Source: a virus
Virus record (IMG/VR): IMGVR_UViG_3300017971_000027
Location: 19,797-83,796 of that record
Length of the DNA: 64,000 nt
Direction: 5' to 3' (one strand)
In this document: positions 21,462 through 54,238 of the stretch, one piece after another
Numbering within the stretch: position 1 is the stretch's first letter
How the letters are laid out: each line of letters begins with the position of its first letter
Program-made: the position numbers and the translations under genes
Notes under the pieces: generated by a model
Databases searched by the model: none
The model's input: the letters and a program-made list of their open reading frames with translations, nothing else
What the model was told of the DNA's origin: nothing

Positions 21462-22256
21462 TAACTCTGAACCACCCTTAAGACTATGGCGTTGCACGAC
21501 TTACAGACGAAATTCAAAATGGTTAATTATTTACATGCAGATTTTTCATTATTCGCATTAGCTGTCAGACTTGCCTTTATCCATTGGACTTACGACTTCT
21601 GTGCCATATAGCCTAGGTCGTGGTAGGCCACCTTGTGAATAGTGAGACCAAGCTGGACTTTGTCAACTCCATACCTTAGCACCTATAGCATTATCAGCAT
21701 TATTAGTCAACCGACTTCGAAAATTTAAATAAATCCTAGCAAACTCGAACATTTCTGTTGGAACGTGCTGGGCTGGCTGGGTTTCTGACTGGCCAAAAAG
21801 CGAAGTAATAATAATGCTAACGGCCCGTTTGGCCCGTTTCTGACACCTTGGCACGGGTCTTGCTTATACATATGCATCTGATTTGAAAGGAGGTGATTCG
21901 ATGAAGCTGAAAGCAAAACTGGACAGGGAAGTTGGCAACCTCGGAGACGTTCAATATTACGTCCTGAAAGTCGAGACTGACAAAGGCGTAGAGTTCACCT
22001 TCCGTCTGTCTTGCAACGATTACAGGCCGATTGCCGAACTGGAAAACGGTTCTCTTGCACGTCTGTCACACTATGAGGCCCGTGACGCTATGGATTTGAT
22101 GGCACGTCTCATCAATAAAGAGATAGCGTGATCGGCATTTCTCGGCAAAACTGGGGTAGAATTTGAGGTCGGTCTACACGCCGATCTCATTTTACCCCTA
22201 TAAACATTGGCTAAAAAAGTTCTTGACTTTTGTCTCGAATTAGTGTATAGTATGTA

Positions 22257-23080
22257 TGCAAGGTTGGGACAGTAAGTACAGCCAAGCAGAACGGCAGTCT
22301 GGAGATTGAGGCTCCGATAAATGCGAACGGCAGGACTGCCAAGCTCATTGACAGTTGAATAAATACGAAACATGCGACAAGATTCAGATGCCATACCACT
22401 GAGTGGATTCGAGCTGAGATAGGCAATGTTTCGTTGCGCCGGTGCTGGTGTAGCCCCGTGGAGAACCATTTGGGAGATAAGCCGACATGAACGTGTCGCA
22501 AAGGCACCAGCACCGGCAGGTCGGCGCACACATAGTAAGTCGCCAGAGTAAAGCGAAAGGAGCGGGTTGATCGCCGTGTACTGGGACTGGGTGCTGGCGC
22601 AGGCGCGATGCGAAAGTCCGCGAGTAGGTCGCATATGTGTGTGTCGACCATATAAAGTTTTCGAGTGGCCGCACGAGCTGGCAGTTTCACCCCAATCTGG
22701 AAGGTCTGCGAAACAGGCCATATAGGGGAGTATCGGGAATTGATCAGTCCGACTGAGACGCTGACGAAACTAATCGGGAATTAACTCGTAGATGGCGTAT
22801 GGCGCGAGGGGTTGAGTCCTCGGGCTGTCAGTACTCGTCGAGCCACTTTTAAGCACTGGATGTCGACGTTGGTTCGAATCCAACCGTAGCGGCCGCTGGC
22901 ATAACATTAAGCCCTGTCCTACTGAAAAGGTAGTAAGGCTGTCAGCATATGAGATCACTCGGCGTAGCTCAGAGGTCAGAGCGGTTCAGTGCTTATAGAA
23001 TTTGGCTGGACGTTACCGTCTGTTGCCGAGACCCCGCTGGTAACGGCGGGAGCGGTGAAATTCCGTGGTAACGTCCGAAC
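22257..23080 (+). ncRNA. Candidate large structured ncRNA or ncRNA cluster (~800 nt)
   Basis: Follows promoter TTGACT-17-TATAGT (22223-22251); no credible + strand ORF; long helices 22438-22450/22505-22517 and 22519-22534/22634-22649; T-arm GTTGG-TTCGAAT-CCAAC near 22868-22884. Confidence 0.65.
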
Positions 23081-24388
23081 GAAATTTTCTTCTTGACAAA
23101 CGATATTGACTTGTGGTATACTAGGTTCAGAAGATAAGGAGATTGAACATGGCACTTCAAATTGAACAAGAAAGAGTCAACCGGATAGCTCGGCGGGTAC
23201 GGAAGTCTAATCTGGACTTTGTCGAGGGCCAGCTCGAAGCGATACAGCTTCTGGCTGAAAGCATCGTGCGAAATGACCCTGACCGGCAGGGTCTCGTTGC
23301 CCAGCACATTGTCAATCGGGTTGGTCGTGCGCTGAGGAATTTGGACGCAGCACGTAACGCATAAGGAGACAGATTATGTTTATGACCAAGGCTGAAGCAT
23401 GGAAATATGAAAACACGGTCACCTGCGGGTTCTGTAAAGATTGGATCGACCCGAACGAATGCGACGAGAATTCCGAGTTGCTCGATTGGATCGGCGACGA
23501 GAAGGATGCCGACTACGAACTGTGTGATCGGACTGACGAATTGCATGTGTGCTACGATTGCGCAAAAGAGTTGAAGGTCGAGATGGAAGCACGGAAGTCC
23601 AACTGGGACGAGGTGGCAGAAGGAATGGCGTGGCCCTACAAGTAAGGGTCGCGCTGTTTCTATGTGTGTGTGTGGAGGTGAACATGAACAGCGTTGTTGC
23701 TAAATGTCCATATGATGGATGTCAGAGAAAGATGGAACTGTTCTTCGATATATTCGAAGGCCAGTACGCAACGTGCGAGCATTGTGGCAAACTTTTCTGG
23801 CTCGAGTTGGAAGTCGCCATAATCAGCACATCAACACATAAGCTGAAAGGATATGAATAGCATGTACCATAAAGAACTTATCGAACAGTTGGAAGATTAC
23901 TCGTTCAGGTCGGGTTACCTGAAGTCGAGTCTGGTACTGTTGGTCAAGGCTATTGAGTCGCATCTCGATTGCAACGACACAGAACCTGATAGCTGGCTCA
24001 GACGGCAGCTCGAAAGAGAACGCAAGACCCTTGAGCTTATCGCCGAGGCTGACAAAAGGAGAATGGCATGTATTGGAAGATAATGTTACCTGCAATCGTG
24101 ATCGCGGTGTTCGTCTGCTGTATGGCATGTGTTGTGCAGTACGAGCGGAATGACATAGAACGTATCGAGAAGGCCGACAGGCTGCATATGATAGAGCCAC
24201 CTGTATTCGAACCGGCCAACACGACAGAAGTGGCCCATATGGCGAATTCGGGCGACGAGCCGGTGTACATGGTAGTACGGTATGAGGTGGCTGAGTCGGA
24301 GACGGGCTGGGAGACGGCTGCGGTCTTCGAAGTCGGCACGGGCCAGAAACTGAAGATAGAGGTTAGTGAATAGGAGAGGACAAGTGAT

Positions 24389-43627: not shown

Positions 43628-45115
43628 CTATAGTTCGACCGCTTCGATCTTCCTGACCATCTCAGCACGTTTACCTTCGGTCATGTTAGACATGAACTCG
43701 AAGATCTTTTCCGAGAAGCCAGCGATGCAGTAAGCTTTCCGTTCAGGGAACATCAGCTGACCATAACCCTGCAAGTCGAAACTATAGATTTCAGGGTCCG
43801 CATCGTATTTCTTGCAGTACTTGGCAAACGAGCTACGCGGGTTGCCACGCTCGTTGCCTATCCAGCCCTGCATGTCAGACAGGATAATCACCCTGTCGTA
43901 CTTCTTGTTCGCAACTTCGAAAATTGCGTGGAAGTTTGTGCCACCAGCTTTGAATTGCATATTTTCAGCCAAGGTCAACACGTTTGCACTCGGGTCCAGA
44001 TTACGGTATTGCGCGTAACTCTGGAACGTCATGAAATCAGCGTTGTTCGACTTGAATAGCACGGCTGCGAACATCGCACCAATCTCTGCCGGTGTAGGTG
44101 CTGGCTTGCCGTTAGGCTGCGTTCCACCACCCCACTGCATTGAACCGGACACGTCCAGCACGACAAGTGTGTCACCGTCGAATACCGGCACGTTCTCAAG
44201 TGCAATTTCAGCAGCGTTTCGGATAGCACCTTGGATCAATCTACGGTTGCCGATATTGACGATCTCGTGAGTGTTGTCCAGCGCAGTCTTGAACCGGAAA
44301 GGCAGAACAAGAGACTTTTTGATCTTCTCACGATCCATCAACTGCTCACATGCCATGCCGACACATTCTGGTGCCTGCTCGGCGATATTGCGCAGGTTCC
44401 GAAGCAACGCGAAATACCCAAGCTTACCTTCCTCAAGCAGCTCTTTCCATGACTGTTTCTTCAGCTCGTCGACCTGAGCCTTGGTCTTGCCTTCCTTACC
44501 AGCTTCAGTAAGTTTGGCTTCCCATGTTTCTGTTGACTTGAGATTGCCAGTCATCAGGTCACGGAACAGCTTTTCTTCCTTGCTGTCGCGAGGCTTTGGC
44601 CGAACGATGTTGAACAAGTCGACCATCGACAGCGCACGGTTCTCGCCACGGTATTTGCTCAACTTATATCTGTTGAACTTGTGGACCGCTTTGGCCAGAC
44701 CTTTCTTCAGACAGTTCGGGATCGGACGCTTACCGTAAGTAGCTTGGTAGTACGACATGATCTCAAGCATGTCGTCTGCACGACGAACGATCTTTTCAAT
44801 CGCACCGGCAGTCCAGTTTGCACCCTTCACGTTCTTAGCCAGTTCACCGGCCACAACGTGCGAAACCGAACGGAGACCGAACTCGTTACGGGCATAGATT
44901 GCAGCCTTCGCAGCGAACTGCTTGTCAGGCATAGTTGCAACCAGACCACGCAACCGAGCAATGCGGTCGTCGGCATTCTCGTAGAACATGTCTTTCAACA
45001 TGGACGTCAGAATCAGGCTCGCCAGTTCAAGCTTAGGCGACTCGGAATAACCAGAGCCACCGGCTAGGTTTGTCGTAGCTGTTTTATTTGTTACCTTTGT
45101 ATTGAATCGTGCCAT
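43628..45115 (-). CDS. rsr: Ro60/Rsr TROVE-domain protein with vWA domain
   Basis: TNLAGG, AIYARNEFGLRS, YKLSKY, TWE, GYFALLRNLRNI, LPFRF, MIDAS DVSGSM, GGTNF, ILSDMQ, GFSEKIF; GGAGGT RBS before ATG at 45115. Confidence 0.93.
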   Translation of the reverse strand: MARFNTKVTNKTATTNLAGGSGYSESPKLELASLILTSMLKDMFYENADDRIARLRGLVATMPDKQFAAKAAIYARNEFGLRSVSHVVAGELAKNVKGANWTAGAIEKIVRRADDMLEIMSYYQATYGKRPIPNCLKKGLAKAVHKFNRYKLSKYRGENRALSMVDLFNIVRPKPRDSKEEKLFRDLMTGNLKSTETWEAKLTEAGKEGKTKAQVDELKKQSWKELLEEGKLGYFALLRNLRNIAEQAPECVGMACEQLMDREKIKKSLVLPFRFKTALDNTHEIVNIGNRRLIQGAIRNAAEIALENVPVFDGDTLVVLDVSGSMQWGGGTQPNGKPAPTPAEIGAMFAAVLFKSNNADFMTFQSYAQYRNLDPSANVLTLAENMQFKAGGTNFHAIFEVANKKYDRVIILSDMQGWIGNERGNPRSSFAKYCKKYDADPEIYSFDLQGYGQLMFPERKAYCIAGFSEKIFEFMSNMTEGKRAEMVRKIEAVEL

Positions 45116-45140
45116 TACGCACCTCCTTGCCCATAAGGGC

Positions 45141-45219
45141 TTGAGAGAAAATCGAGTTCGGTTGACCAAGGGGTCAGCTAGTTTGGAGCTGATGAAGTAT
45201 CCGAACTCTCACTACCCAA
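45141..45219 (-). ncRNA. Y-RNA-like unit 5 (nearest Ro60)
   Basis: TTGGG-TAGTGA-GAGTTCGG-ATACTTC-(insert)-CCGAACTC-GATTTTCT-CTCAA. Confidence 0.75.
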
Positions 45220-45265
45220 AGACTGATTTCACATGTGCGAGGCTCAGTCATATAAGCCAAACAAG

Positions 45266-45400
45266 TGCGGAGAAAACAAAGAGAGTGTCTAATAGACTGA
45301 CCCGCGAAGGCCAGACGATTCGCATTTGTACGCAAATCTTGGATTCGAACCAAGTAACCCCGAAGGGTATTTCCGAAGTATCTCTCTTATCACTACCGCA
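45266..45400 (-). ncRNA. Y-RNA-like unit 4, with T-arm
   Basis: TGCGG-TAGTGA-TAAGAGAG-ATACTTC...CTTGG-TTCGAAT-CCAAG...CTCTCTTT-GTTTTCT-CCGCA. Confidence 0.8.
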
Positions 45401-45418
45401 AAAACTAAATTGTAAAAT

Positions 45419-45549
45419 AGGGAGAAAGTTTCGTTGGGTCTCTTACTACTTGTGTGTTTTCCAGTTTCACCACGACCACACTAGGCGGTCGACAGGATTC
45501 GAACCTGCAATCTCAAGTTCCTCTGAAGTATCCCAACGATCACTGCCCT
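45419..45549 (-). ncRNA. Y-RNA-like unit 3, YrlA-like circularly permuted tRNA
   Basis: AGGG-CAGTGA-TCGTTGGG-ATACTTC..ACTTG-AGATT-GCAGG TTCGAAT CCTGT-CGACCGC CTAGT GTGGTCG-TG-GTG AAACTGGAAAA CAC-A-CAAGT..CCCAACGA-AACTTTCT-CCCT. Confidence 0.85.
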
Positions 45550-45570
45550 GAAAATCGCACCACGAAAATA

Positions 45571-45694
45571 GAGGAGAAAATCGCAAAGAGTGTTTTTGTC
45601 GGGTATTTTTTACGAGTAACCCGTCTCGTTGCATCATGACGACTGGTTGCCCAGTCTTTCTCTGTCATAGAAGTAACTCTTTGCTCACTGCCTC
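45571..45694 (-). ncRNA. Y-RNA-like unit 2
   Basis: GAGG-CAGTGA-GCAAAGAG-TTACTTC-(two hairpins)-CTCTTTGC-GATTTTCT-CCTC. Confidence 0.75.
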
Positions 45695-45703
45695 AAAACA
45701 GGG

Positions 45704-45769
45704 TGGAGAGAAAAGTACCAAGGGTGTTTGCTTTTTCCGAAAGAAGTAACCCTTTAGCTCACTACTCCA
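45704..45769 (-). ncRNA. Y-RNA-like unit 1 (minimal)
   Basis: TGGAG-TAGTGA-GCTAAAGGG-TTACTTC-(short loop)-CCCTTGGT-ACTTTTCT-CTCCA. Confidence 0.75.
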
Positions 45770-45810
45770 AATTGCTTCAACAACATCCTTCCGTGAATTC
45801 CACTATAACC

Positions 45811-45840
45811 ATTATACCATAAACCAACCGCATTTGTCAA
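45811..45840 (-). promoter_or_regulatory. sigma70 promoter upstream of the Y-like array and Ro60
   Basis: TTGACA-18-TATAAT within the phage consensus AAACCTCTTGACA...TGGTATAAT. Confidence 0.85.
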
Positions 45841-45858
45841 GAGGTTTTGGGAACTTTT

Positions 45859-46214: not shown

Positions 46215-46288
46215 TGGATGCCGTGGGAGGACTCGAACCTCCAAGTACAGGTCCAAAGCCTGTCGTGTTGCCTTTACACCACACGGCA
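46215..46288 (-). tRNA. tRNA-Gln(TTG)
   Basis: Cloverleaf; ACAGG CT TTG GA CCTGT; CCA encoded. Confidence 0.9.
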
Positions 46289-46296
46289 AATTTGTT

Positions 46297-46373
46297 TGGC
46301 GGTCATGACGGGATTCGAACCCGCGATCTCCTGCGTGACAGGCAGGCGACTTAACACACTTGTCCACACGACC
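46297..46373 (-). tRNA. tRNA-Asp(GTC)
   Basis: CCTGC CT GTC AC GCAGG; CCA. Confidence 0.9.
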
Positions 46374-46375
46374 GT

Positions 46376-46451
46376 TGGGGTGATAGACGAGACTCGAACT
46401 CGCACATACAAGGTCCACAACCTTGCGGTCTACCGTTGGCCTACTATCACC
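46376..46451 (-). tRNA. tRNA-His(GTG)
   Basis: CAAGG TT GTG GA CCTTG; G-1 and C73. Confidence 0.9.
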
Positions 46452-46499
46452 ATGCATTCTAATTATACCACAAACAACAACCTCGTGTCAAGAGGTTTT

Positions 46500-46575
46500 T
46501 GGTGCGGGAGAAGAGACTCGAACTCTCAACTCAAGCTTGGAAGGCTCACATGTTGCCAATTAACACCACTCCCGC
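46500..46575 (-). tRNA. tRNA-Gly(TCC)
   Basis: TGAGC CT TCC AA GCTTG; CCA. Confidence 0.9.
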
Positions 46576-46690
46576 AAATCGTTAGTCGGGATTGCTTACA
46601 TCCACGACTTGGTATTCTTCGCGTTCGCCGGGGTCGACCCCGATCTTCTCCGCGCCTCGGAAAACACCGGACCCTTTGGCAGTCGCGTTG

Positions 46691-47623
46691 TCACCCATCG
46701 ACCTCAGTTTCTTCGAGCGTATATCCTCGTCCACTTCCTTGTTCTTCGGAAGGGCTTTCATCGGTAGCGGTATTCCCTTTGGCATCGAATAACTCCTTGA
46801 TTATGTAGTTTGCTTGGCCTCGCGGAGACAAGAATTGGTCGTAGTAATATCGACCATACTGCTCCATTGTTTTTCTGTGCTCCTCTTCGTTGATCCAATA
46901 GCGTATCTTTTCTTCAAGGTCCGACATATCACGTTTGAAGTAATCGGCAATTGGAACACCGGGTGCTTTGCATCTTGGCTCTGGCATAAGTAAAAATCGC
47001 CCGAGAGCCAATATCTCGTTATGTCTGAACGTCCAGTCGCCCTTGTTCTCTTTCCCACCTTGCATGGCCAGACAGACCTTGCTCGCGCCAAGATAGTTCA
47101 AGTACCGGTCGCGGTTGACCAGCGTATGCTCGAACGGGTTGTTCGCGCTTATCTGCGGATTGATACTCTTCAGTCTGAGTACCTTTGATATCCCGTCCAT
47201 ACCTTCGACTATCTTACAGGCCTTTACACGGTCACAATCTTCGACCCATGCTCGGCCCATGAACGTCACGTCGATAGTCTGGTCTCGAGTTGACGGTTCG
47301 ATCTCTCCGAGTCTGCTAACCTGTCCAATCGGTCGGACTTGATCGGTAACCTCGTCAGCGAGCAGCATGATTCGGAACATCTTTGTATCATCAATATCGA
47401 AGAACTCGACCGGAGTCTTAACAAAGTCTCGAAAATCATACCACGCTGTTTCCTTCTTGCCGTCCTGTTCGACAGCGAAGTGATACGTCCCGCCGATCAG
47501 ACTGTCTTCGCGAAGCTTCGGATCATAGACAACCTCAAACCCGAGCCGCCTAAACCCTTCGGGGATATAGTCACACCATGCTTGGTAACGATACGGGCCA
47601 CTAGGCCAATACAATGTATTCAT
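46691..47623 (-). CDS. Putative GT-B glycosyltransferase (CgeB/YkvP-like C-terminal domain)
   Basis: DVTFMG, YLNYLGASKVCL..G...WTFRHNEILALG.FLL, DLEEKIRYW..E.HR..M...G..YY. Confidence 0.65.
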   Translation of the reverse strand: MNTLYWPSGPYRYQAWCDYIPEGFRRLGFEVVYDPKLREDSLIGGTYHFAVEQDGKKETAWYDFRDFVKTPVEFFDIDDTKMFRIMLLADEVTDQVRPIGQVSRLGEIEPSTRDQTIDVTFMGRAWVEDCDRVKACKIVEGMDGISKVLRLKSINPQISANNPFEHTLVNRDRYLNYLGASKVCLAMQGGKENKGDWTFRHNEILALGRFLLMPEPRCKAPGVPIADYFKRDMSDLEEKIRYWINEEEHRKTMEQYGRYYYDQFLSPRGQANYIIKELFDAKGNTATDESPSEEQGSGRGYTLEETEVDG

Positions 47624-48144
47624 GTCGCACTCCTTTTCATTGGCATCAAATCGCGATGGAATATGTTCCTGCAATTTGCCTGCACTTCATAACCATTACT
47701 TGAGTCAAACTGCCCCTGTGCCATGCCCCTAGACTTTTTCATAAACATATCATACGGTATCCGACCAACTACCCAGCCGTGCTGGTAGAGTCCGTTCTTA
47801 TCTCGATAGATCCGACAGAACACAAACCAGTGAGGGTGCTGATGTCCCAAGCTGGCAATAGCGACAGAGCCTTCCCAGTGCGATGGCGGTGTATGTGGTA
47901 CGCTTTGTGCTTTTGTCTTAATCTCTATCTTTGTGGCACCGAATGCATAATCATATCCGTGCGCACCGATATACCGAACTTCCGGTGCCACCTTCTCGAA
48001 CATCAGCTCGCCAAGCCTGCCGAGAATATTACCACCACCACCCTTGAATGACAGCTTGTTGTACGCATCTGTCCCTGCAAGAGCAGCCTCGTCGCGCATC
48101 TCTTGATTCAGATTTACCCGAATTGGACTATATCGTTTTTTCAT
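47620..48144 (-). CDS. Putative restriction-endonuclease-fold nuclease
   Basis: G.LGE..F, YDY, IEIKTK (PD-(D/E)xK-like spacing). Confidence 0.45.
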   Translation of the reverse strand: MKKRYSPIRVNLNQEMRDEAALAGTDAYNKLSFKGGGGNILGRLGELMFEKVAPEVRYIGAHGYDYAFGATKIEIKTKAQSVPHTPPSHWEGSVAIASLGHQHPHWFVFCRIYRDKNGLYQHGWVVGRIPYDMFMKKSRGMAQGQFDSSNGYEVQANCRNIFHRDLMPMKRSAT

Positions 48145-48148
48145 AATT

Positions 48149-48222
48149 TGGAGCGGATAGCGAGGATCGAACTCGCGTATTCTGGCTGGCAACCAGACAC
48201 CTTTCCACTAGGTTATATCCGC
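48149..48222 (-). tRNA. tRNA-Gly(GCC)
   Basis: TCTGG TT GCC AG CCAGA; U73 CCA. Confidence 0.88.
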
Positions 48223-48671
48223 TAAATCCTAAACGAGAAACTGCTCATTCCAATACCAGCTTCAACAAATATATCTACAGCTCTCTTACAACTCTCGAAC
48301 CATTTTCTCTTATGCCCAAAGTAAAAGTCTTCGGGCCACACAGCTCTTATAATTCCAGCGTTGGCTATAAGTACGGCACAATCTGCACACGGTGGATGGG
48401 TGATATATATCTTACATCCCTTAACTGGAATCCCGACCCTCGCTGCATTGGCTATTGCATTCGCCTCCGCATGGGCCACCCAGTAATATTTCTCGGGTCT
48501 ATTCCACCGTTCAGAAACGTCATCGTCAACTCCTCGAGGAAACCCGTTGTATCCTATCGACCTGACCTCATTGTCTGGCCCGACTATAACAGCTCCACAT
48601 TGTGTGCTGGGGTCTTTCGATTTCGTTGACACGTACCGCGCCATACCTTTGTAGAACTCGTCCCACGTCAT
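48222..48671 (-). CDS. dCMP deaminase
   Basis: SKDPSTQCGAVIV, GYNGFPRG, HAEANAI, PCADC. Confidence 0.92.
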   Translation of the reverse strand: MTWDEFYKGMARYVSTKSKDPSTQCGAVIVGPDNEVRSIGYNGFPRGVDDDVSERWNRPEKYYWVAHAEANAIANAARVGIPVKGCKIYITHPPCADCAVLIANAGIIRAVWPEDFYFGHKRKWFESCKRAVDIFVEAGIGMSSFSFRI

Positions 48672-48704
48672 TTGAAGGCGACCACCTCCCTTCCAGTTTT
48701 TGTT

Positions 48705-48782
48705 TGGTGCCAAGGGCCGGAATTGAACCGGCGACGGCGCAGATTTTCAATCTACCGCTCTACCTGACTGAGCTACCTCGGC
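48705..48782 (-). tRNA. tRNA-Phe(GAA)
   Basis: GTAGA TT GAA AA TCTGC; CCA. Confidence 0.9.
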
Positions 48783-48790
48783 GTTAATAA

Positions 48791-48876
48791 TGGTGCCAGT
48801 ACCTAGAATCGAACTAGGAAGGCCATAAGACATCTGATTTACAGTCAGACCCCGCTCCATACGGGACTACACTGGC
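48791..48876 (-). tRNA. tRNA-Tyr(GTA)
   Basis: TCTGA CT GTA AA TCAGA; long variable arm. Confidence 0.88.
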
Positions 48877-48882
48877 ATAAGT

Positions 48883-49410
48883 CTAAAGTATCTCTACCCC
48901 GAAAGATTCTTTCATTTGTTTCAAGGCCCACAAATGTGCCTCATTGTCAAACGCCATCACGTAATTTCGATCAACATAAACGTGGTAATCCCTGTTCCTC
49001 AACTCTTCCACAGTATACAAGATACAGAGGTTTGTGCATACGCCAACGACCTCGCATTCTGTCGGATTGATATCTTCGAGCGCACGTTCCATAGCGATAC
49101 TTCCGTAGAAAGCGGAGTATCTTGTTTTGGGGACCACCCAGTCGTGCTTAACTATTGCACCCTTAATCTTATCAACTACCTCTGATTCCCATGTTCCTTG
49201 AATGCAGTGAGGGGTGGAAAAGTTGAATTCCTTGTCATTCTTCTTGTGCCGGTCGCAAACGAAGATAACTCGGTCTCCGTTCATGTGATACTGCCGCACC
49301 TTTTTCTCTATGGAATCAACCAGAGCTTCCACGCCCTCACCACAATACATTGATCCGTCGGGATGACAGAACCCGTTTAACATGTCCGTTACAACTAATG
49401 CTTTTGCCAT
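48883..49410 (-). CDS. pncA: Nicotinamidase/isochorismatase-family cysteine hydrolase
   Basis: VVTDMLNGF, D.H, PHC..GTW, K..YSAF, VGVCTNLC (Asp-Lys-Cys triad). Confidence 0.8.
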   Translation of the reverse strand: MAKALVVTDMLNGFCHPDGSMYCGEGVEALVDSIEKKVRQYHMNGDRVIFVCDRHKKNDKEFNFSTPHCIQGTWESEVVDKIKGAIVKHDWVVPKTRYSAFYGSIAMERALEDINPTECEVVGVCTNLCILYTVEELRNRDYHVYVDRNYVMAFDNEAHLWALKQMKESFGVEIL

Positions 49411-49538
49411 TTCGCACCCTTTCAATTTTTAAGCTTTTCCATTGCAGCGCGGGGTTCCCGATCCCGCCTTCCACTCCACACTCTCCTAACCGGCCACTGT
49501 ACAGCCGAAACTGCCGATGGCGAAGCAACGGAACGTTC

Positions 49539-49620
49539 TGGTGCATGAGAAGGGAGTCGAACCCTTATGCCGAAGCAGACGGTTTTGAGCCGACCGTGTA
49601 TTCCATTCCACCACTCATGC
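49539..49620 (-). tRNA. tRNA-Leu(CAA)
   Basis: GTCGG CT CAA AA CCGTC; variable arm; CCA. Confidence 0.88.
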
Positions 49621-49745
49621 AAAAATTCAGCCGTGGGCTTTCGTTGAGCCACCTCCCTACTCGCCCACATAACCTCAATGCTGTCCGCTTATGGCATACG
49701 GAGTAGTCTTATATGACGCTTAGGCTGTAAAACATTCCTATTATT

Positions 49746-49822
49746 TGGTACGGGTGAGAGGATTCGAACCTCCAAAAACCTTGGGTCTAAGCCAAGTGCA
49801 TATGCCTTTCTGCTACACCCGC
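49746..49822 (-). tRNA. tRNA-Leu(TAG), short variable region
   Basis: CTTGG CT TAG AC CCAAG; CCA. Confidence 0.85.
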
Positions 49823-49929
49823 ATTTTCATCTGTTCGCGCAAATATTTCATGGTGGCCGGTACCGGCGTAGGCGACAACCCCTGCCAAAAGATACCGCAT
49901 CCGAACCAGCACCGGCTCACCTTAATTTT

Positions 49930-50004
49930 TGGTAGCGGAGATCGGAATCGAACCGACATATACTTGGTTATGAGCCAAGCGAGTTACCAGTACTCTACTC
50001 CGCG
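49930..50004 (-). tRNA. tRNA-Met(CAT), initiator-like
   Basis: CGCGGAG acceptor with C1:U72 mismatch; CTTGG CT CAT AA CCAAG. Confidence 0.85.
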
Positions 50005-50051
50005 CCACTGTTTCTATTATACCACAAACGACCGCCGATTGTCAAGAGGTT

Positions 50052-50966
50052 TTAGAGAATCATTGTCTTCCGCAACTCTTTCTCGACTAGATTCATGCCT
50101 TCGCTGTGATTATTTATCGTGCCTTCTAACTGCGCCTTATCTGTCAACTCGAGCAACCTACCGAATACCGGACTCGGTTCCAAGCCAATCGCAATTAAAT
50201 CGTACCCATCAACAAATCGCTTTTCAGGTATCGCTGGCAAATCGTTCTTATCATTCTTAAACTCGTCCCAGTACTTCTTGATGCTGTCGGCGTCATTCCG
50301 GTTTAGCATATCGTCGGCTTTCATGAACTCGACCAGCTTCTCAAAGTCGCTATGACGCATCAGCTCTTCACGCTTGCTGTGTCGCATGTTCATGAACCAC
50401 TTGATACGCATGTGGTTCTCGATGATCCATTTTACGTCTCTCTGGACAGTCTCATTGAAACCTAATCTCTCGAGAACAACACCAGCAATCTCGACGGACT
50501 TTTTTTCATGACCGGCTGTCTTCATTGCTTTGCCGGTATCATGTAACAGCGCAGCCCATCTGAGATGTTTTGGCGCACGTTGAACCACCAAACATGTATG
50601 CCGAAACACATCGCCCTCTGGATGATAGGCAGCGTTCTGGTCGACGTATTCAAGTATGTCTACCTCTGGTATCAGCTGTCCGAGCAGTCGAGTCTTCTTG
50701 AGCAGAACCAAACCTGTCGCTGGATGTTCGGACCCGAGGATGAGATTCAACTCGTCCCGGACCGCTCCCATCTCAGCGAACTTGATCTGGTGCGCGTTAG
50801 CCCGTATCGCACGGACAGCTTTGTCGCCTGTGTTGTAACCGTTCTGGACGACTTTTCGAACGTACCGTAGCATATTGATATATTCTGGATTGAATGATTC
50901 TGCCGGTTCGCCGTTACAAACCAGTGTCATGCCTTCAATCTTGAACGTCATCGTTTTGCCTTTCAT
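50052..50966 (-). CDS. HD-domain protein resembling the C-terminal part of a CCA-adding enzyme
   Basis: ERxxxEL-like segment, YHPEGDVFRHT, LRWAALLHDTGK, GHE..S, I..HM; N-terminal nucleotidyltransferase head (GG..RD, DxD) absent. Confidence 0.8.
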   Translation of the reverse strand: MKGKTMTFKIEGMTLVCNGEPAESFNPEYINMLRYVRKVVQNGYNTGDKAVRAIRANAHQIKFAEMGAVRDELNLILGSEHPATGLVLLKKTRLLGQLIPEVDILEYVDQNAAYHPEGDVFRHTCLVVQRAPKHLRWAALLHDTGKAMKTAGHEKKSVEIAGVVLERLGFNETVQRDVKWIIENHMRIKWFMNMRHSKREELMRHSDFEKLVEFMKADDMLNRNDADSIKKYWDEFKNDKNDLPAIPEKRFVDGYDLIAIGLEPSPVFGRLLELTDKAQLEGTINNHSEGMNLVEKELRKTMIL

Positions 50967-50972
50967 AATAGC

Positions 50973-51049
50973 TGGTCGGAGCGGAGGGATTTGAACCCCC
51001 GACTTTCTGGTCCCAAACCAGACGCGCTTCCAAGCTGCGCCACGCTCCG
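50973..51049 (-). tRNA. tRNA-Pro(TGG)
   Basis: TCTGG TT TGG GA CCAGA; CCA. Confidence 0.92.
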
Positions 51050-51054
51050 AAAAC

Positions 51055-51128
51055 TAGTAGGGACTTGCAGGAATCGAACCTGCACCACCCACTCTCTGTA
51101 GGGCATTCTGCCATTAAAATATCGTCCC
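51055..51128 (-). pseudogene. Degenerate tRNA-like element
   Basis: Intact T-arm and D-arm; irregular anticodon arm (CCCTAC AGAGA GTGGG); mismatched acceptor; ends ACTA. Confidence 0.6.
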
Positions 51129-51136
51129 ATAATATT

Positions 51137-51212
51137 TGGTGGAGCCAAAGGGAATCGAACCCTCAACTTCTGCCTTGCAAGGGCAGCACTCTCCCAGTTG
51201 AGCTATGGCCCC
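51137..51212 (-). tRNA. tRNA-Ala(TGC)
   Basis: G3:U70; CTGCC CT TGC AA GGCAG. Confidence 0.93.
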
Positions 51213-51217
51213 AAATC

Positions 51218-51291
51218 TGGTAGCGGTAGATAGAATCGAACTATCATTAAGCGATTATCGGTCGCTGGCTCTACCGTTGAGCTATACCGCT
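51218..51291 (-). tRNA. tRNA-Ile(GAT)
   Basis: AGCGA CC GAT AA TCGCT (C33). Confidence 0.88.
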
Positions 51292-51297
51292 AATTTC

Positions 51298-51373
51298 TGG
51301 TGACCCTGACCGGATTTGAACCGGCGATCTTCAGAGTGAAAGTCTGACGAGTTATCCGCTGCTCCACAGGGTC
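51298..51373 (-). tRNA. tRNA-Glu(TTC)
   Basis: TCAGA CT TTC AC TCTGA. Confidence 0.88.
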
Positions 51374-51383
51374 ATAAATATTT

Positions 51384-51457
51384 TGGCGGGAAGGAGAGGA
51401 GTCGAACCCCCAGTTCTGGGTCTGGAATCCAGCGTGTTTCCGTTACACTACCAACCC
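51384..51457 (-). tRNA. tRNA-Trp(CCA)
   Basis: CTGGA TT CCA GA CCCAG; G73; two U:U pairs in the acceptor stem. Confidence 0.8.
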
Positions 51458-51465
51458 GCTTACAC

Positions 51466-51543
51466 TGGCTGTGACGGCTGGGATCGAACCAGCGACCTTC
51501 TCCTTAACAGGGAGTTGCTGCTACCTAGCTGAGCTACGTCACA
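51466..51543 (-). tRNA. tRNA-Asn(GTT)
   Basis: ACTCC CT GTT AA GGAGA; U1:A72, G73. Confidence 0.85.
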
Positions 51544-51658
51544 ATAATTCTATTATAGCGATGGTGGCTAAGGCTGGGGCTTAGGCTTTAAGGCCAAGGT
51601 TTCCCTTTTGCATGTGCCGGTTCCAGCTCACATCTTACCATTTCAGAGCCACCATATC

Positions 51659-51735
51659 TGGAGCAAGCAGTCGGATTCGAACCGACGATTACCGGTTTTG
51701 CAGACCGGCGTGTTCAACCGCTTCACCATGCTTGC
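51659..51735 (-). tRNA. tRNA-Cys(GCA)
   Basis: CCGGT CT GCA AA ACCGG; U73. Confidence 0.9.
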
Positions 51736-51792
51736 TAACTCTCTTGTACCCATTATACCATAAACAGGTACCATTTGTCAAGAGGTAATTTT

Positions 51793-51868
51793 TGGAGCCG
51801 GTGACAGGAATCGAACCCGTAACCCACTGCTTACAAGGCAGTCGCTCTTCCTATTGAGCTACACCGGC
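51793..51868 (-). tRNA. tRNA-Thr(TGT)
   Basis: ACTGC CT TGT AA GCAGT. Confidence 0.92.
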
Positions 51869-51956
51869 TCAGTTTAGGTGACTTGGACGAGTGCTACCTA
51901 GTGAGCAGTTTGTATCCAAGTTTTCCGATCTCGTACCGTTTCCGGTCACCCAATTT

Positions 51957-52031
51957 TGGTGCTCCACCAAGGATTCGAACCTTGAATAGTTGCTTGTAAG
52001 GCAACCGTGATCGCCATTTCACTAGCGGAGC
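51957..52031 (-). tRNA. tRNA-Val(TAC)
   Basis: GTTGC CT TAC AA GCAAC. Confidence 0.88.
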
Positions 52032-52037
52032 ATTAAC

Positions 52038-52112
52038 TGGTAGGCATGAGAGGACTCGAACCCCCACTAATTGATCCGTAGTCAATCGTGCTGTCCATTA
52101 CACTACACGCCT
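52038..52112 (-). tRNA. tRNA-Arg(ACG)
   Basis: ATTGA CT ACG GA TCAAT. Confidence 0.85.
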
Positions 52113-52274
52113 ATTTTATCTTTGGAAACTTCTTCTCAACTCGCAACGTCTTTCCACAATACACGCACTTAAAATGCTGTATCAACACACCGCGAATTAT
52201 CTCGGTCCCACAGGCTTTCACCCAATCATGACCGAGCAACCAACATAGCCGTTTCCGTATTTTGAAAGCCACTA

Positions 52275-52874
52275 CTAGCCTCCTTCAAGTTCAGTGTTCC
52301 AGTATACTTTGTCGACAAACTGTTGCCATGCATCATGTGCTTTGACTTTGTCTGGACTCACTCTGAACAGCCACGCCGGTTTTTTTGGTTTTCTCTGCAG
52401 TTTCATTCCTGCTTCTTCTGGCGTCTTGTCAGACTTTATTGAATTACATCTCACACACGCCAGCACAATGTTGTCCCAAGTGCTTTTGCCACCACGAGAC
52501 TTTGGAACAACGTGGTCCATTGTCAGCTCGTGGCGGTCAAACTTTTTTCCGCAATACTGGCACCGGTAGTTGTCCCGTGCAAATATGTTTCGCCTACTAA
52601 ACCTGACCGCCTTGCCGAACATCTTATCGAAACCGGTTAACACAATAATAGATGGTACCGGAATTCTGTAGTTTGGCGACTTAATGAACCCGTTACCAGT
52701 TTCGCAATCCGACAGGTCTTTCCATGTCTCGAACTCGTGCAACGTGTAATCAACTGGGTTCATCGCCTTGGCCACTTCACGAAAAAGCAGCGTCAAGGCA
52801 TGTCTCGCGTTTATCACAGATATCGCGTTCCACGACTTGTTCAAAACTAATACGCTTGCGTTTTCGTAACTCAT
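52275..52874 (-). CDS. HNH endonuclease (HNH_5 type)
   Basis: VLVLN, FSRRNIFARDNYRCQYCG...TMDHVVPKSRGG...WDNIVLACVRCN..K. Confidence 0.92.
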   Translation of the reverse strand: MSYENASVLVLNKSWNAISVINARHALTLLFREVAKAMNPVDYTLHEFETWKDLSDCETGNGFIKSPNYRIPVPSIIVLTGFDKMFGKAVRFSRRNIFARDNYRCQYCGKKFDRHELTMDHVVPKSRGGKSTWDNIVLACVRCNSIKSDKTPEEAGMKLQRKPKKPAWLFRVSPDKVKAHDAWQQFVDKVYWNTELEGG

Positions 52875-52985
52875 TTGTGACTCCTTAAAACCATTTGTCG
52901 TATTTGAAAAACAATATAACAGAGACTATGACGGCGATCATGGCTAAAGTTCCAAATGTTTCAGCGTTCATAGTCTTCACCTTTA

Positions 52986-53062
52986 TGGTACCCCGACAGG
53001 GATTCCAACCCTGAGTATACGGCTTAGAAGACCGTTGCATTATGCTGTTATGCTATCGGGGC
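52986..53062 (-). tRNA. tRNA-Arg(TCT)
   Basis: ACGGT CT TCT AA GCCGT; T-loop TTGGAAT paired with a GC D-loop. Confidence 0.82.
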
Positions 53063-53361
53063 TTTGGCACAAGTGCGGGATTATCCTTAAGCACCTGTAC
53101 AATTACATTTGAGAGGTCGTCCACATTCTTTTCGCTCAACCCCATCTGGAGCAGGTTATCAATACCGTGCATAACCTCATGCCAAATATTTGTCTCTTTC
53201 AATGTTCCACTTAGGTCTTCGACCACCTCGATCAACTCTTTACTATAGGTTATTTGTCCAATCCTTCTCGTGTTAGAATCATCGAACGGTGGCGGTATAT
53301 CTTTCTTTTTTACGACCTTATATGTATACGGACCTATCTTGATCTCTTTTGGAAGTTTCAT
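53053..53361 (-). CDS. Small zincin-like (HExxH) protein, paralog A
   Basis: MKLPKEIKIG...IWHEVMHG...PKPR. Confidence 0.7.
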   Translation of the reverse strand: MKLPKEIKIGPYTYKVVKKKDIPPPFDDSNTRRIGQITYSKELIEVVEDLSGTLKETNIWHEVMHGIDNLLQMGLSEKNVDDLSNVIVQVLKDNPALVPKPR

Positions 53362-53370
53362 ATATCGCAC

Positions 53371-53682
53371 CTACCTTGGCTTTGGGGCCAACGATGGATG
53401 GTCTTTCAGTATCTGTACTATCCCGTGAGCCAGCTTGTCGGTTTTCTCTTCGCTCAACTCCATCTCTTGATCTTCTGCTATTGCATGGATCAGCTCGTGC
53501 CATAACGTCAGTTCACGGCGTGGCCCTCGTAGACTCTTTTTTATCTGAATCTTCTCGTCATCGAAATTCACATCTCCGTCGAGAGCAATCTTTTTACCAC
53601 TCTTTGTCGTGGCGAATATCTTTTCTGGAAACGATATTGTGTATGTATACGAGCCTACGACGATCTTCTTTGGTATCTTCAT
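53371..53682 (-). CDS. Small zincin-like (HExxH) protein, paralog B
   Basis: MKIPKKIVVG...LWHELIHA...PKPR. Confidence 0.7.
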   Translation of the reverse strand: MKIPKKIVVGSYTYTISFPEKIFATTKSGKKIALDGDVNFDDEKIQIKKSLRGPRRELTLWHELIHAIAEDQEMELSEEKTDKLAHGIVQILKDHPSLAPKPR

Positions 53683-53701
53683 ATCGCTTTCCTGTAAATG
53701 C

Positions 53702-53777
53702 TGGTTGGACGGATGGGACTCGAACCCACATAACAACTGGTTAAAAGCCAGCTGCTTATCCATTAAGCTACCGTCCA
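53702..53777 (-). tRNA. tRNA-Lys(TTT)
   Basis: GCTGG CT TTT AA CCAGT. Confidence 0.9.
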
Positions 53778-53787
53778 ACAAATTTTC

Positions 53788-53874
53788 TGGTACGCGAGAC
53801 TGGATTCGAACCAGCACGGCACATACGTCCAGTGGGTTTTAAGTCCACCATGTCTACCATTCCATCACTCGCGC
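53788..53874 (-). tRNA. tRNA-Leu(TAA)
   Basis: GTGGA CT TAA AA CCCAC; long variable arm. Confidence 0.88.
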
Positions 53875-53978
53875 AAAACAATGGGCGTTGGCTTGTGGCC
53901 GGAATCGAACCGTCCCTTTGTCATAAAGCCATACGACACTGTGCAAAACCATACACCAATTCCACAACGCCCAAAATC

Positions 53979-54053
53979 TGGTTGGCCCACACGGACTCGA
54001 ACCGTGAACTTCTGATTATGAGTCAGGTGCTTTGCCATTTAAGCCATAGGCCA
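53979..54053 (-). tRNA. tRNA-Met/Ile2(CAT)
   Basis: CCTGA CT CAT AA TCAGA. Confidence 0.85.
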
Positions 54054-54058
54054 ATACA

Positions 54059-54144
54059 TGGAGGTAGGTATGGGATTCGAACCCATGAGCCTTTCGACTA
54101 CCGAGTTAGCAACCCGACGCATTAAACCACTCTGCCAACCTACC
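54059..54144 (-). tRNA. tRNA-Ser(GCT)
   Basis: TCGGG TT GCT AA CTCGG; variable arm. Confidence 0.88.
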
Positions 54145-54152
54145 GTTTATTT

Positions 54153-54238
54153 TGGCGGAAGAGGAGGGACTCGAACCCCCATAGCTGTCGCTTACTGGTT
54201 TTCAAGACCAGCGGAGTAGCCAATTCTCCAACTCTTCC
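54153..54238 (-). tRNA. tRNA-Ser(TGA)
   Basis: CTGGT CT TGA AA ACCAG; variable arm; G73. Confidence 0.9.

What the first reader, a model, noticed from the sequence alone, without database searches (positions are those of the whole stretch)
22257..23080. About 800 nt of highly structured non-coding sequence behind its own promoter
Seen: after TTGACT-17-TATAGT there is no credible ORF until the next promoter at 23093. Nested helices include GGCAGTC/GACTGCC, CGAAACAT/ATGTTTCG, a perfect 13-bp helix (22438-22450/22505-22517), a 16-bp helix with G:U pairs (22519-22534/22634-22649), GTGGCCGC/GCGGCCGC enclosing a T-arm, a D-arm-like GCTC-AGAGGTCA-GAGC near 22966, and GGACGTTACC/GGTAACGTCC. The G:U pairs favour the + strand. 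Established: phages carry giant ncRNAs such as GOLLD and ROOL. I cannot assign a class, so it may be new.
Basis: partly seen in the sequence, partly recalled or inferred. Interest (0 to 1): 0.75.

Follow-up and report, generated by a model that had tools for sequence, protein, structure and literature searches.

The report
Large phage RNA with tRNA mimic
An uncultured marine phage has an about 835-base stretch behind its own promoter that does not look protein-coding, folds into a chain of stem-closed domains, and contains a back-to-front tRNA look-alike of the kind that partners the Ro60 protein this phage also encodes; no relatives were found, so its function is still untested.

Summary
The promoter (22223-22251) and the next one (23093) are there. 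No ORF on either strand has gene-like codon usage. No Rfam family matches, even at E<=10.

Structure beyond chance is moderate. The whole-region z is -3.6 to -5.6, against -2.2 to +2.8 for seven coding controls. Composition-corrected 400-nt windows are unremarkable.

The 3' quarter can be named. 22850-22995 is a circularly permuted tRNA with the YrlA topology. Put back in normal tRNA order, ARAGORN calls it a tRNA at default settings.

The phage encodes a true Ro60 (TROVE plus vWA) 21 kb away. Five Y-like RNAs sharing one "handle" sit upstream of that gene. The big RNA's ends resemble the clamp stem and U-rich tail of one of those units, but it lacks the 5' handle motifs.

Best reading: one early non-coding transcript, intact or processed, that belongs to the phage's Ro60/Y-RNA toolkit.

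No homologue turned up in viral, metagenome or genome collections, and no RNA run holds the stretch. Covariation and expression are therefore untested. First readers of this scan had already noted the tRNA mimic and this locus on this same genome.

The parts
22223..22251 (+). Sigma-70-type promoter TTGACT-17-TATAGT. The inferred start is near 22258.
   Evidence: 10 of 12 matches. Its -35 region repeats that of the next promoter (family D3). The start site is inferred.
22263..22283 (+). 5' end. GTTGGGAC can pair with 23073-80. It is followed by AGTAAGT and by ACAGCC, which can pair with 22823-28.
   Evidence: MFE. GTTGGGAYA occurs in the window only here and in Y-like unit 3. The pairing is not dominant in the ensemble.
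22293..22340 (+). Domain A: a small three-way junction closed by GGCAGTCT/GGACTGCC.
   Evidence: z -2.8. Pair probability 0.38.
22364..22435 (+). Domain B: closed by a 9-bp stem, ACGAAACAT/ATGTTTCGT.
   Evidence: z -2.5.
22438..22517 (+). Domain C: a 14-bp closing helix (13 Watson-Crick pairs plus a G:U) around two hairpins.
   Evidence: Pair probability 1.00. z -5.8.
22519..22649 (+). Domain D: a 16-bp closing helix with two G:U pairs around a multi-branch interior. AGTAAGT follows the 5' strand.
   Evidence: Pair probability 0.99. z -3.1. The G:U pairs would be C-A mismatches on the - strand (sequence).
22650..22836 (+). Middle stretch with no excess fold of its own. It holds the hairpin 22703-19, two copies of ATCGGGAATT (22732, 22773) and GTGGCCGC (22665).
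   Evidence: z +0.2. (repeat D5)..
22837..23011 (+). Domain E: a circularly permuted tRNA mimic (YrlA topology). Long clamp stem 22837-61 / 22984-23011, variable loop 22862-67, T-arm 22868-84, acceptor 3' strand 22885-91, 66-nt insert 22892-22957 with hairpin 22895-22946, acceptor 5' strand 22958-64, U8 and A9, D-arm 22967-82, G26.
   Evidence: Rearranged to tRNA order with an artificial loop, ARAGORN calls it a tRNA at default threshold; 3 of 200 shuffles pass at the lax setting. The tRNA tertiary positions U8, A14, G15:C48, G18, G19, U54 and A58 are all present (sequence).
23007..23077 (+). Domain F: a cloverleaf-shaped four-way junction (11-bp closing stem plus three hairpins, one with a GTAA loop).
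   Evidence: Pair probability 0.92-1.00. z -5.0.
23073..23095 (+). 3' end: GTCCGAAC, then GAAA, then TTTTCTTC. This matches the inner-stem-plus-U-rich-tail layout of the Ro60-linked Y-like RNAs and is a possible terminator tract. The next promoter begins at 23093.
   Evidence: An 18-mer from unit 3 matches only here at up to 3 mismatches (expected 0.03). Other phages have the same 3' layout. No terminator was called by the simple scan.

Best explanation
The stretch is a dedicated early transcription unit (promoter 22223-51, start near 22258, end near the U-run at 23085-95) that makes a non-coding RNA of about 835 nt.

The RNA folds into a chain of stem-closed domains (A-F). Domain E is a tRNA written in rotated order: T-arm first, then a closed, enlarged acceptor arm, then the D-arm, all clamped by a 12-bp stem where the anticodon arm would be. 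It can therefore show the tRNA elbow to tRNA-binding proteins without having an anticodon or a CCA end. This is the design of YrlA, the Y RNA that ties bacterial Ro60 to PNPase.

The phage encodes Ro60 and five Y-like RNAs, and the ends of the big RNA resemble the clamp and U-rich tail of one of them. I therefore infer that the RNA, intact or cut into domains, works in the same Ro60 particle as a scaffold, tether or decoy during early infection.

Shown here: promoter, non-coding character, helices, the tRNA-mimic anatomy, the Ro60 gene and the Y-like array. Inferred: transcription, the RNA's ends, Ro60 binding and any role.
For: - Promoter and cassette layout.
- All ORFs in the stretch score -0.04 to -0.17, against +0.15 to +0.33 for real genes. 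The - strand ORF has no relative among 1.84 billion representatives.
- GC is 0.54-0.56, against 0.46-0.47 in the flanks, and GC skew is positive as in + strand genes.
- The + strand fold is 49 kcal/mol better than the - strand. z is -3.6 to -5.6, beyond seven coding controls.
- Domains C, D and F have pair probabilities of 0.92 or more and z of -3 to -6.
- Domain E passes ARAGORN as a tRNA once put in tRNA order.
- Ro60 with TROVE and vWA_Ro60 domains lies at 43628-45169.
- Five handle-bearing Y-like units lie upstream of it, and one gives a weak Rfam YrlA hit.
- End similarity to unit 3. The same 3' layout occurs in handle RNAs of other phages.
- The only CGGCCG in a genome that avoids that word (1 seen, 17.7 expected) lies in domain E.
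Against: - No homologue was found anywhere, so there is no covariation.
- There are no RNA data.
- Composition-corrected fold energy is ordinary.
- Long-range pairs change when 15 nt are added at the 3' end.
- The locus is 21 kb from Ro60 and on the other strand, unlike nearly all YrlA genes (PMC4201824).
- The Ro-binding motif GNCGAAN0-1G is absent.
- The strict 5' handle, AGTGA-N-TACTTC, is absent.
- Rfam YrlA does not match domain E.
- In an unbiased local alignment, the similarity to the Y-like array is within the shuffle range, apart from the T-arm, which ties the best of 200 shuffles. The end similarity was noticed post hoc.
Confidence: 0.45

Rival explanations
1. A stand-alone large structured RNA of a new class, comparable in size and setting to GOLLD or ROOL and unrelated to Ro60. 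The tRNA-like domain would serve only as a folding module or a processing signal.
For: The size and multi-domain fold; the phage setting with many tRNAs; no match to any Rfam family; distance from Ro60 and missing Ro motifs; very stable domains C, D and F that resemble nothing known.
Against: No second example exists, so it is a "class" of one. The tRNA mimic and the handle-like tail point to the Y-RNA system carried by the same phage.
Confidence: 0.2
2. A polycistronic precursor. The transcript is cut into several small RNAs (domains A-F), and only domain E is a Y-type RNA.
For: The domains are each closed by their own stem and separated by 1-25 nt. The Ro60-linked array shows that this phage makes tandem small RNAs from one promoter. 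The middle 187 nt has no fold excess.
Against: Only one U-rich tail and one handle-like clamp serve the whole stretch, whereas each of the five array units has its own. Domains B, C and D abut with 1-3 nt linkers, leaving no room for the linkers seen in the array.
Confidence: 0.2
3. No functional RNA. The stretch is a decaying remnant of tRNA or Y-RNA genes, or acquired DNA, between two cassettes, and its helices reflect G-rich composition.
For: Composition-corrected fold energy is ordinary. Shuffles reach 16-bp stems with G:U. There is no conservation evidence. The acceptor mimic has 2 mismatches in 7 pairs.
Against: The stretch has a strong dedicated promoter. Every invariant tRNA core position in domain E is intact. 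Fold excess exceeds all controls at full length. A phage that packs genes tightly keeps 835 nt free of coding signal.
Confidence: 0.12
4. A protein gene on the - strand (216 aa, 22071-22721).
For: The open frame exists, and a public pipeline called it as a gene.
Against: Its codon score is -0.14. It has no ribosome-binding site or promoter, and it runs through the + strand promoter and into the + strand gene 21883-22131. It has no Pfam or PHROG hit and no relative among 1.84 billion representatives. GC skew is of the wrong sign.
Confidence: 0.03

Closest known systems
YrlA (Y RNA-like A; Rfam RF02553; Chen et al. 2014, PMC4201824; Wang et al. 2018, 10.1101/312249)
   Same: Domain E has the same order: clamp stem, variable loop, T-arm, closed acceptor-like arm, D-arm, clamp stem. 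It keeps the tRNA tertiary positions. The genome encodes Ro60.
   Different: - Embedded in an 835-nt transcript rather than being a free RNA of about 100-150 nt.
- The acceptor-like arm carries a 66-nt insert.
- The clamp is 12 bp or more.
- No GNCGAAN0-1G motif.
- 21 kb from Ro60 and on the opposite strand.
- No Rfam hit at E<=10.
The phage's own five Y-like units upstream of Ro60, and the same "handle" RNAs in other phages
   Same: The 3' layout is shared: stem strand, 2-4 nt, then TTTTCT. The stem word GTTGGGA is shared with unit 3. A tRNA mimic sits inside, as in units 3 and 4.
   Different: It lacks YAGTGA before the stem and WTACTTC after it; only AGTAAGTAC follows the stem. It is six to eleven times longer than a unit.
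Yrl1 and Yrl2 of Thermus phage phiLo with phage Ro60 (PMC12135203)
   Same: Phage-encoded Ro60 with phage-encoded partner RNAs. That paper proposes hijacking of host PNPase.
   Different: Those RNAs are small stem-bulge-stem RNAs next to the Ro60 gene. This one is large and distant from it.
GOLLD and ROOL large RNAs (Rfam)
   Same: Size range; occurrence in phages or prophages rich in tRNA genes (from my own knowledge).
   Different: No match to either model at E<=10, and no shared motif seen.
Permuted tRNA genes (Cyanidioschyzon merolae) and two-piece tmRNA
   Same: The 3' half of the tRNA fold is encoded before the 5' half.
   Different: There is no anticodon loop, no CCA (CCG follows the discriminator) and no tag reading frame. 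ARAGORN finds no tmRNA.

Membership tests
YrlA / bacterial Y RNA (RF02553) | Match to the Rfam covariance model at or near its gathering score (69 bits) | tested here: not met
   No hit at E<=10 over 22100-23200. Unit 3 beside Ro60 scores only 17.1 bits.
YrlA / bacterial Y RNA (RF02553) | tRNA-like domain in the order T-arm, closed acceptor-like stem-loop, D-arm, held by a stem formed from the flanks | tested here: met
   In tRNA order it is accepted by ARAGORN at default threshold.
YrlA / bacterial Y RNA (RF02553) | GNCGAAN0-1G motif near the 5' end (likely Ro60 site; PMC4201824) | tested here: not met
   None in 22201-23100. The nearest is GTCGAG at 22837.
YrlA / bacterial Y RNA (RF02553) | Encoded within about 4 kb of Ro60 on the same strand (PMC4201824) | tested here: not met
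   Ro60 is at 43628-45169 on the - strand, 21 kb away.
YrlA / bacterial Y RNA (RF02553) | Bound by Ro60 | not testable with these tools
   Needs EMSA or a pull-down with the phage Ro60.
Phage "handle" Y-like RNAs (undescribed family, five units at 45138-45772) | 5' half: YAGTGAK, then a 7-9-nt stem strand, then WTACTTC | tested here: not met
   The strict motif occurs five times in the genome, all in the array.
Phage "handle" Y-like RNAs (undescribed family, five units at 45138-45772) | 3' half: stem strand, then 2-4 nt, then TTTTCTY | tested here: met
   23073-23092. The same layout occurs in other phages.
GOLLD, ROOL, tmRNA, RNase P RNA, group I and II introns, 6S | Match to the Rfam model | tested here: not met
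   (E<=10). ARAGORN finds no tmRNA.
Functional tRNA | Contiguous cloverleaf with an anticodon loop and a 3' CCA or a site for it | tested here: not met
   Not called by ARAGORN or Rfam in place. The halves are permuted, a 12-bp stem replaces the anticodon arm, and CCG follows the discriminator.

The most novel reading that the evidence does not exclude
The whole 835 nt is one stable RNA clamped by a Y-type stem and tail: a giant Y RNA. It would be bound by the phage Ro60 and would carry a tRNA mimic plus at least five further domains that recruit or trap host RNA-handling proteins early in infection. It would be several times larger than any Y RNA described, and a new class of large phage RNA.
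Probability: 0.12. Interest if true: 0.8.

Novelty: new variant of a known kind. Interest (0 to 1): 0.55.

Why it matters
Y RNAs are known as small tethers of about 70-200 nt for Ro60, and how phages use them is barely explored. A promoter-driven RNA four to eight times that size would be new on two counts. It would extend the idea of what a Ro60 partner RNA can be, and it would add a candidate to the short list of very large structured phage RNAs, such as GOLLD and ROOL, whose functions are still unknown.

It would also give a concrete test object. The phage supplies the protein, five small partner RNAs and one large RNA, all of which can be made in vitro. As it stands it is a single example without conservation or expression data.

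Tried and rejected
**Rfam.** Gathering and E<=10 scans found nothing in the stretch.

**Searches for homologues, all negative.**
- blastn against 50,697 phage records.
- Close relatives of the 475-aa neighbour and of the large terminase in IMG/VR.
- ArdC-like neighbour: the best non-self hits are about 44% identical generic ArdC proteins, several from bacterial records.
- 475-aa neighbour by tblastn: at most 29% identity, in unrelated phages.
- Three phages sharing Ro60 at 49-50% identity are unrelated low-GC phages with no match to the RNA.
- A T-loop to D-arm pattern found only tRNA pairs or unrelated mimics: IMG/VR 72 loci, JGI metagenomes 2 loci, GTDB genomes 0.
- The D-arm plus clamp 20-mer hit only a true tRNA-Thr.
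- Fifteen phages carrying handle RNAs: no blastn match and no terminase kinship. The same holds for L040.
- Near-identical records may be hidden by the tools, as their outputs state.

**Tools and data that gave nothing.**
- Sequencing runs: no RNA holder is listed. Two DNA runs hold the stretch with no differences, so there are no natural variants. Short low-identity pieces in X3 and X4 are chance.
- The protein atlas on the downstream 71-aa protein gave only a generic helical hairpin.

**Ideas rejected.**
- Motif enrichments (RCGAAA six times, AGTAAG three times) are post hoc and do not survive correction for the number of possible words.
- Two-piece tmRNA, a split decoding tRNA, a retron RNA and a leader of the downstream genes were considered and rejected on anatomy: no CCA, tag frame or anticodon; no reverse transcriptase seen; and the downstream genes have their own promoter.

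Full report
**Setting.** The window is bases 19797-83796 of an 83,796-bp IMG/VR virus record with direct terminal repeats. The phage encodes a tape-measure protein, portal, major head protein and large terminase, and 26 tRNAs at 46215-54238 on the - strand. It also encodes ribonucleotide reductase, a helicase and a CCA-enzyme-like protein. Two DNA runs, from sediment and seawater, hold the stretch identically. I found no close relative of the phage through four genes.

**Check of the observation.**
- The + strand folds to -312.5 kcal/mol and the - strand to -263.8. The 16-bp helix has two G:U pairs that would be C-A mismatches on the other strand.
- Against dinucleotide shuffles the full stretch has z = -5.6 (20 shuffles) or -3.6 (12 shuffles). 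Seven coding stretches of the same length from the same phage gave -2.2 to +2.8.
- Two cautions apply. With G:U allowed, shuffles of this G-rich sequence reach 16-bp stems, and only the sum of the three longest helices beats all 100 shuffles. Also, 400-nt windows regressed on base composition are unremarkable, although that test does not flag the tRNA array either, so it has little power.
- By pair probability the solid elements are 22438-51/22504-17, 22519-34/22634-49, 22703-08/22714-19, 23007-17/23067-77 and 23033-39/23044-50. The long-range pairs change when 15 nt are added at the 3' end.
- Domain z-scores, with boundaries chosen on the helices and therefore optimistic: C -5.8, F -5.0, D -3.1, A -2.8, B -2.5, E -2.3, middle stretch +0.2.

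**Coding or not.** A codon-usage log-odds trained on 18 long genes of this phage gives +0.15 to +0.33 for those genes. It gives +0.32 for the small upstream gene 21883-22131 and +0.09 to +0.34 for the small downstream genes. Every ORF inside the stretch scores -0.04 to -0.17, including a 216-aa ORF on the - strand. That ORF has no Pfam or PHROG hit and matches only itself among 1.84 billion representatives. GC is 0.54-0.56 inside, against 0.46-0.47 beside it, and GC skew has the sign of + strand transcription. No promoter-like or terminator-like site was found between 22251 and 23093. The layout is promoter, 835 nt, U-run, next promoter.

**What can be named.**
- Read 5' to 3', the element is: a 12-bp stem strand (22850-61), a 6-nt variable loop ending in C (22862-67), a canonical T-arm (22868-84), seven bases in the place of the acceptor 3' strand (22885-91), and a 66-nt insert with its own hairpin (22895-22946).
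- It continues with seven bases in the place of the acceptor 5' strand (22958-64, pairing 5 of 7), U8 and A9, a canonical D-arm (22967-82), G26 and the other strand of the 12-bp stem (22984-95).
- U8, A14, G15 with C48, G18, G19, U54 and A58 are all present.
- When the two halves are put in tRNA order and an arbitrary 7-nt loop closes five pairs of the clamp, ARAGORN calls a tRNA at its default threshold. Shuffled halves pass 3 times in 200 at a laxer setting.
- This is the YrlA topology described by Chen et al. 2014 (PMC4201824).
- The D-arm and the next bases are identical over 23 nt to a tRNA-Thr in another viral contig, which hints at the ancestry.

**Context that bears on it.** The phage has a Ro60 gene with TROVE and vWA_Ro60 domains at 43628-45169 on the - strand.
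- Between a consensus promoter near 45840 and that gene lie five tandem units. Each is built as: outer stem, YAGTGAK, inner stem, WTACTTC, insert, inner stem, 2-4 nt, TTTTCTY, outer stem. The stems differ in sequence yet pair in every unit.
- Units 3 and 4 contain T-arms, and unit 3 gives a weak Rfam YrlA hit of 17.1 bits.
- The strict 5' motif occurs only in these five places in the genome.
- The same handle with a T-arm occurs in 15 other viral contigs. In about ten of the 18 units found there, the 3' side reads stem, 2-3 nt, TTTTCT.

**Ends of the big RNA.**
- The 5' end, GTTGGGAC (22263-70), can pair with GTCCGAAC (23073-80), which is followed by GAAA and TTTTCTTC.
- Unit 3 has GTTGGGA in its inner stem and CCCAACG, AAA, CTTTCTCC at its 3' side.
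- The 9-mer GTTGGGAYA occurs only at these two places in the window.
- The 18-mer of unit 3 matches only 23075-92 at up to three mismatches, with 0.03 expected by chance.
- I noticed the similarity first and tested it afterwards. An unbiased local alignment of the two regions gives scores within the shuffle range, apart from the T-arm, which ties the best of 200 shuffles. The argument therefore rests on position: both matches sit at the cognate ends.
- The 5' motifs YAGTGA and WTACTTC are missing; AGTAAGTAC follows the stem instead.
- The end pairing competes with the last four pairs of the F stem and is not dominant in the predicted ensemble.

**Explanation and rivals.** I commit to a dedicated early non-coding RNA that carries a YrlA-type tRNA mimic and belongs to the phage's Ro60/Y-RNA system, acting intact or after processing (confidence 0.45).
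- In bacteria, Y RNA tethers Ro60 to PNPase. A phage Ro60 with its own small RNAs forms such a complex with host PNPase in vitro (PMC4201824; PMC12135203). A tether, scaffold or decoy role is the inference by analogy.
- Against a Ro60 link: the distance and strand relative to Ro60, no GNCGAAN0-1G motif, no 5' handle, and no Rfam hit.
- Rivals: an unrelated new large RNA (0.20), a precursor of several small RNAs (0.20), a non-functional remnant (0.12), and a - strand protein (0.03).

**What could not be done.** No RNA run holds the stretch.

**Verdict.** This is a real, promoter-driven, non-coding, multi-domain locus. One quarter of it is a recognisable tRNA mimic of the Y-RNA kind; the rest is unexplained, and there is only this one example. 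I rate it a new variant of a known kind, with moderate interest.

Noticed in passing
window 45138-45845 (- strand): Five tandem Y-like RNA units with a shared handle lie between a consensus promoter and the Ro60 start. Their inner and outer stems covary between units. Units 3 and 4 hold T-arms, and unit 3 is a YrlA-type mimic (Rfam 17.1 bits). First readers had already noted this (e1-6072949, e1-6072950).
   Followed up: partly
L094-L108 (15 IMG/VR contigs of 7-395 kb): The same handle (AGTGAK, stem, WTACTTC, then a T-arm within 20-50 nt) occurs in 15 other viral contigs. In about ten of the 18 units found there, the 3' side is stem, 2-3 nt, TTTTCT. None of these phages shares the terminase or the big RNA.
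   Followed up: partly
window 22889-22896: The genome's only CGGCCG (1 seen, 17.7 expected) and its only GCGGCCGC lie in domain E. Several other GC-rich 6-bp palindromes are absent or nearly so: GAGCTC 0, GGCGCC 0, GCCGGC 1, CTGCAG 2.
   Followed up: partly
window 21883-22200: A small + strand gene (about 76-82 aa, codon score +0.32, no family hit) ends before a hairpin GAGGTCGG/CCGATCTC (22165-22188) followed by ATTTT. This completes a promoter-gene-hairpin cassette just upstream of the RNA's promoter.
   Followed up: no
L040:9140-9330 (IMGVR_UViG_2974521131_000001, 83,724 bp): In an unrelated phage without a TROVE gene, a sequence that looks like a tmRNA 3' end (…CAGCTCCACCA; not checked with ARAGORN or Rfam) is followed directly by a T-arm, a 71-nt insert and a canonical D-arm. 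This is another permuted tRNA mimic with a long insert.
   Followed up: no
window 51059-51128 (- strand): A tRNA-like element scores 29.7 bits in Rfam, just over the threshold, but ARAGORN does not call it. It has a good T-arm (GCAGG TTCGATT CCTGC).
   Followed up: no
window 22732-22741 and 22773-22782: An exact 10-nt direct repeat, ATCGGGAATT. Either copy can pair with AGTTTTCGA at 22656-64, so alternative pairings are possible.
   Followed up: no
window 22071-22721 (- strand): This non-coding-looking 216-aa ORF is on record as a predicted protein in a public collection (P0124, which matches only itself). It is probably a false gene call over the RNA.
   Followed up: yes
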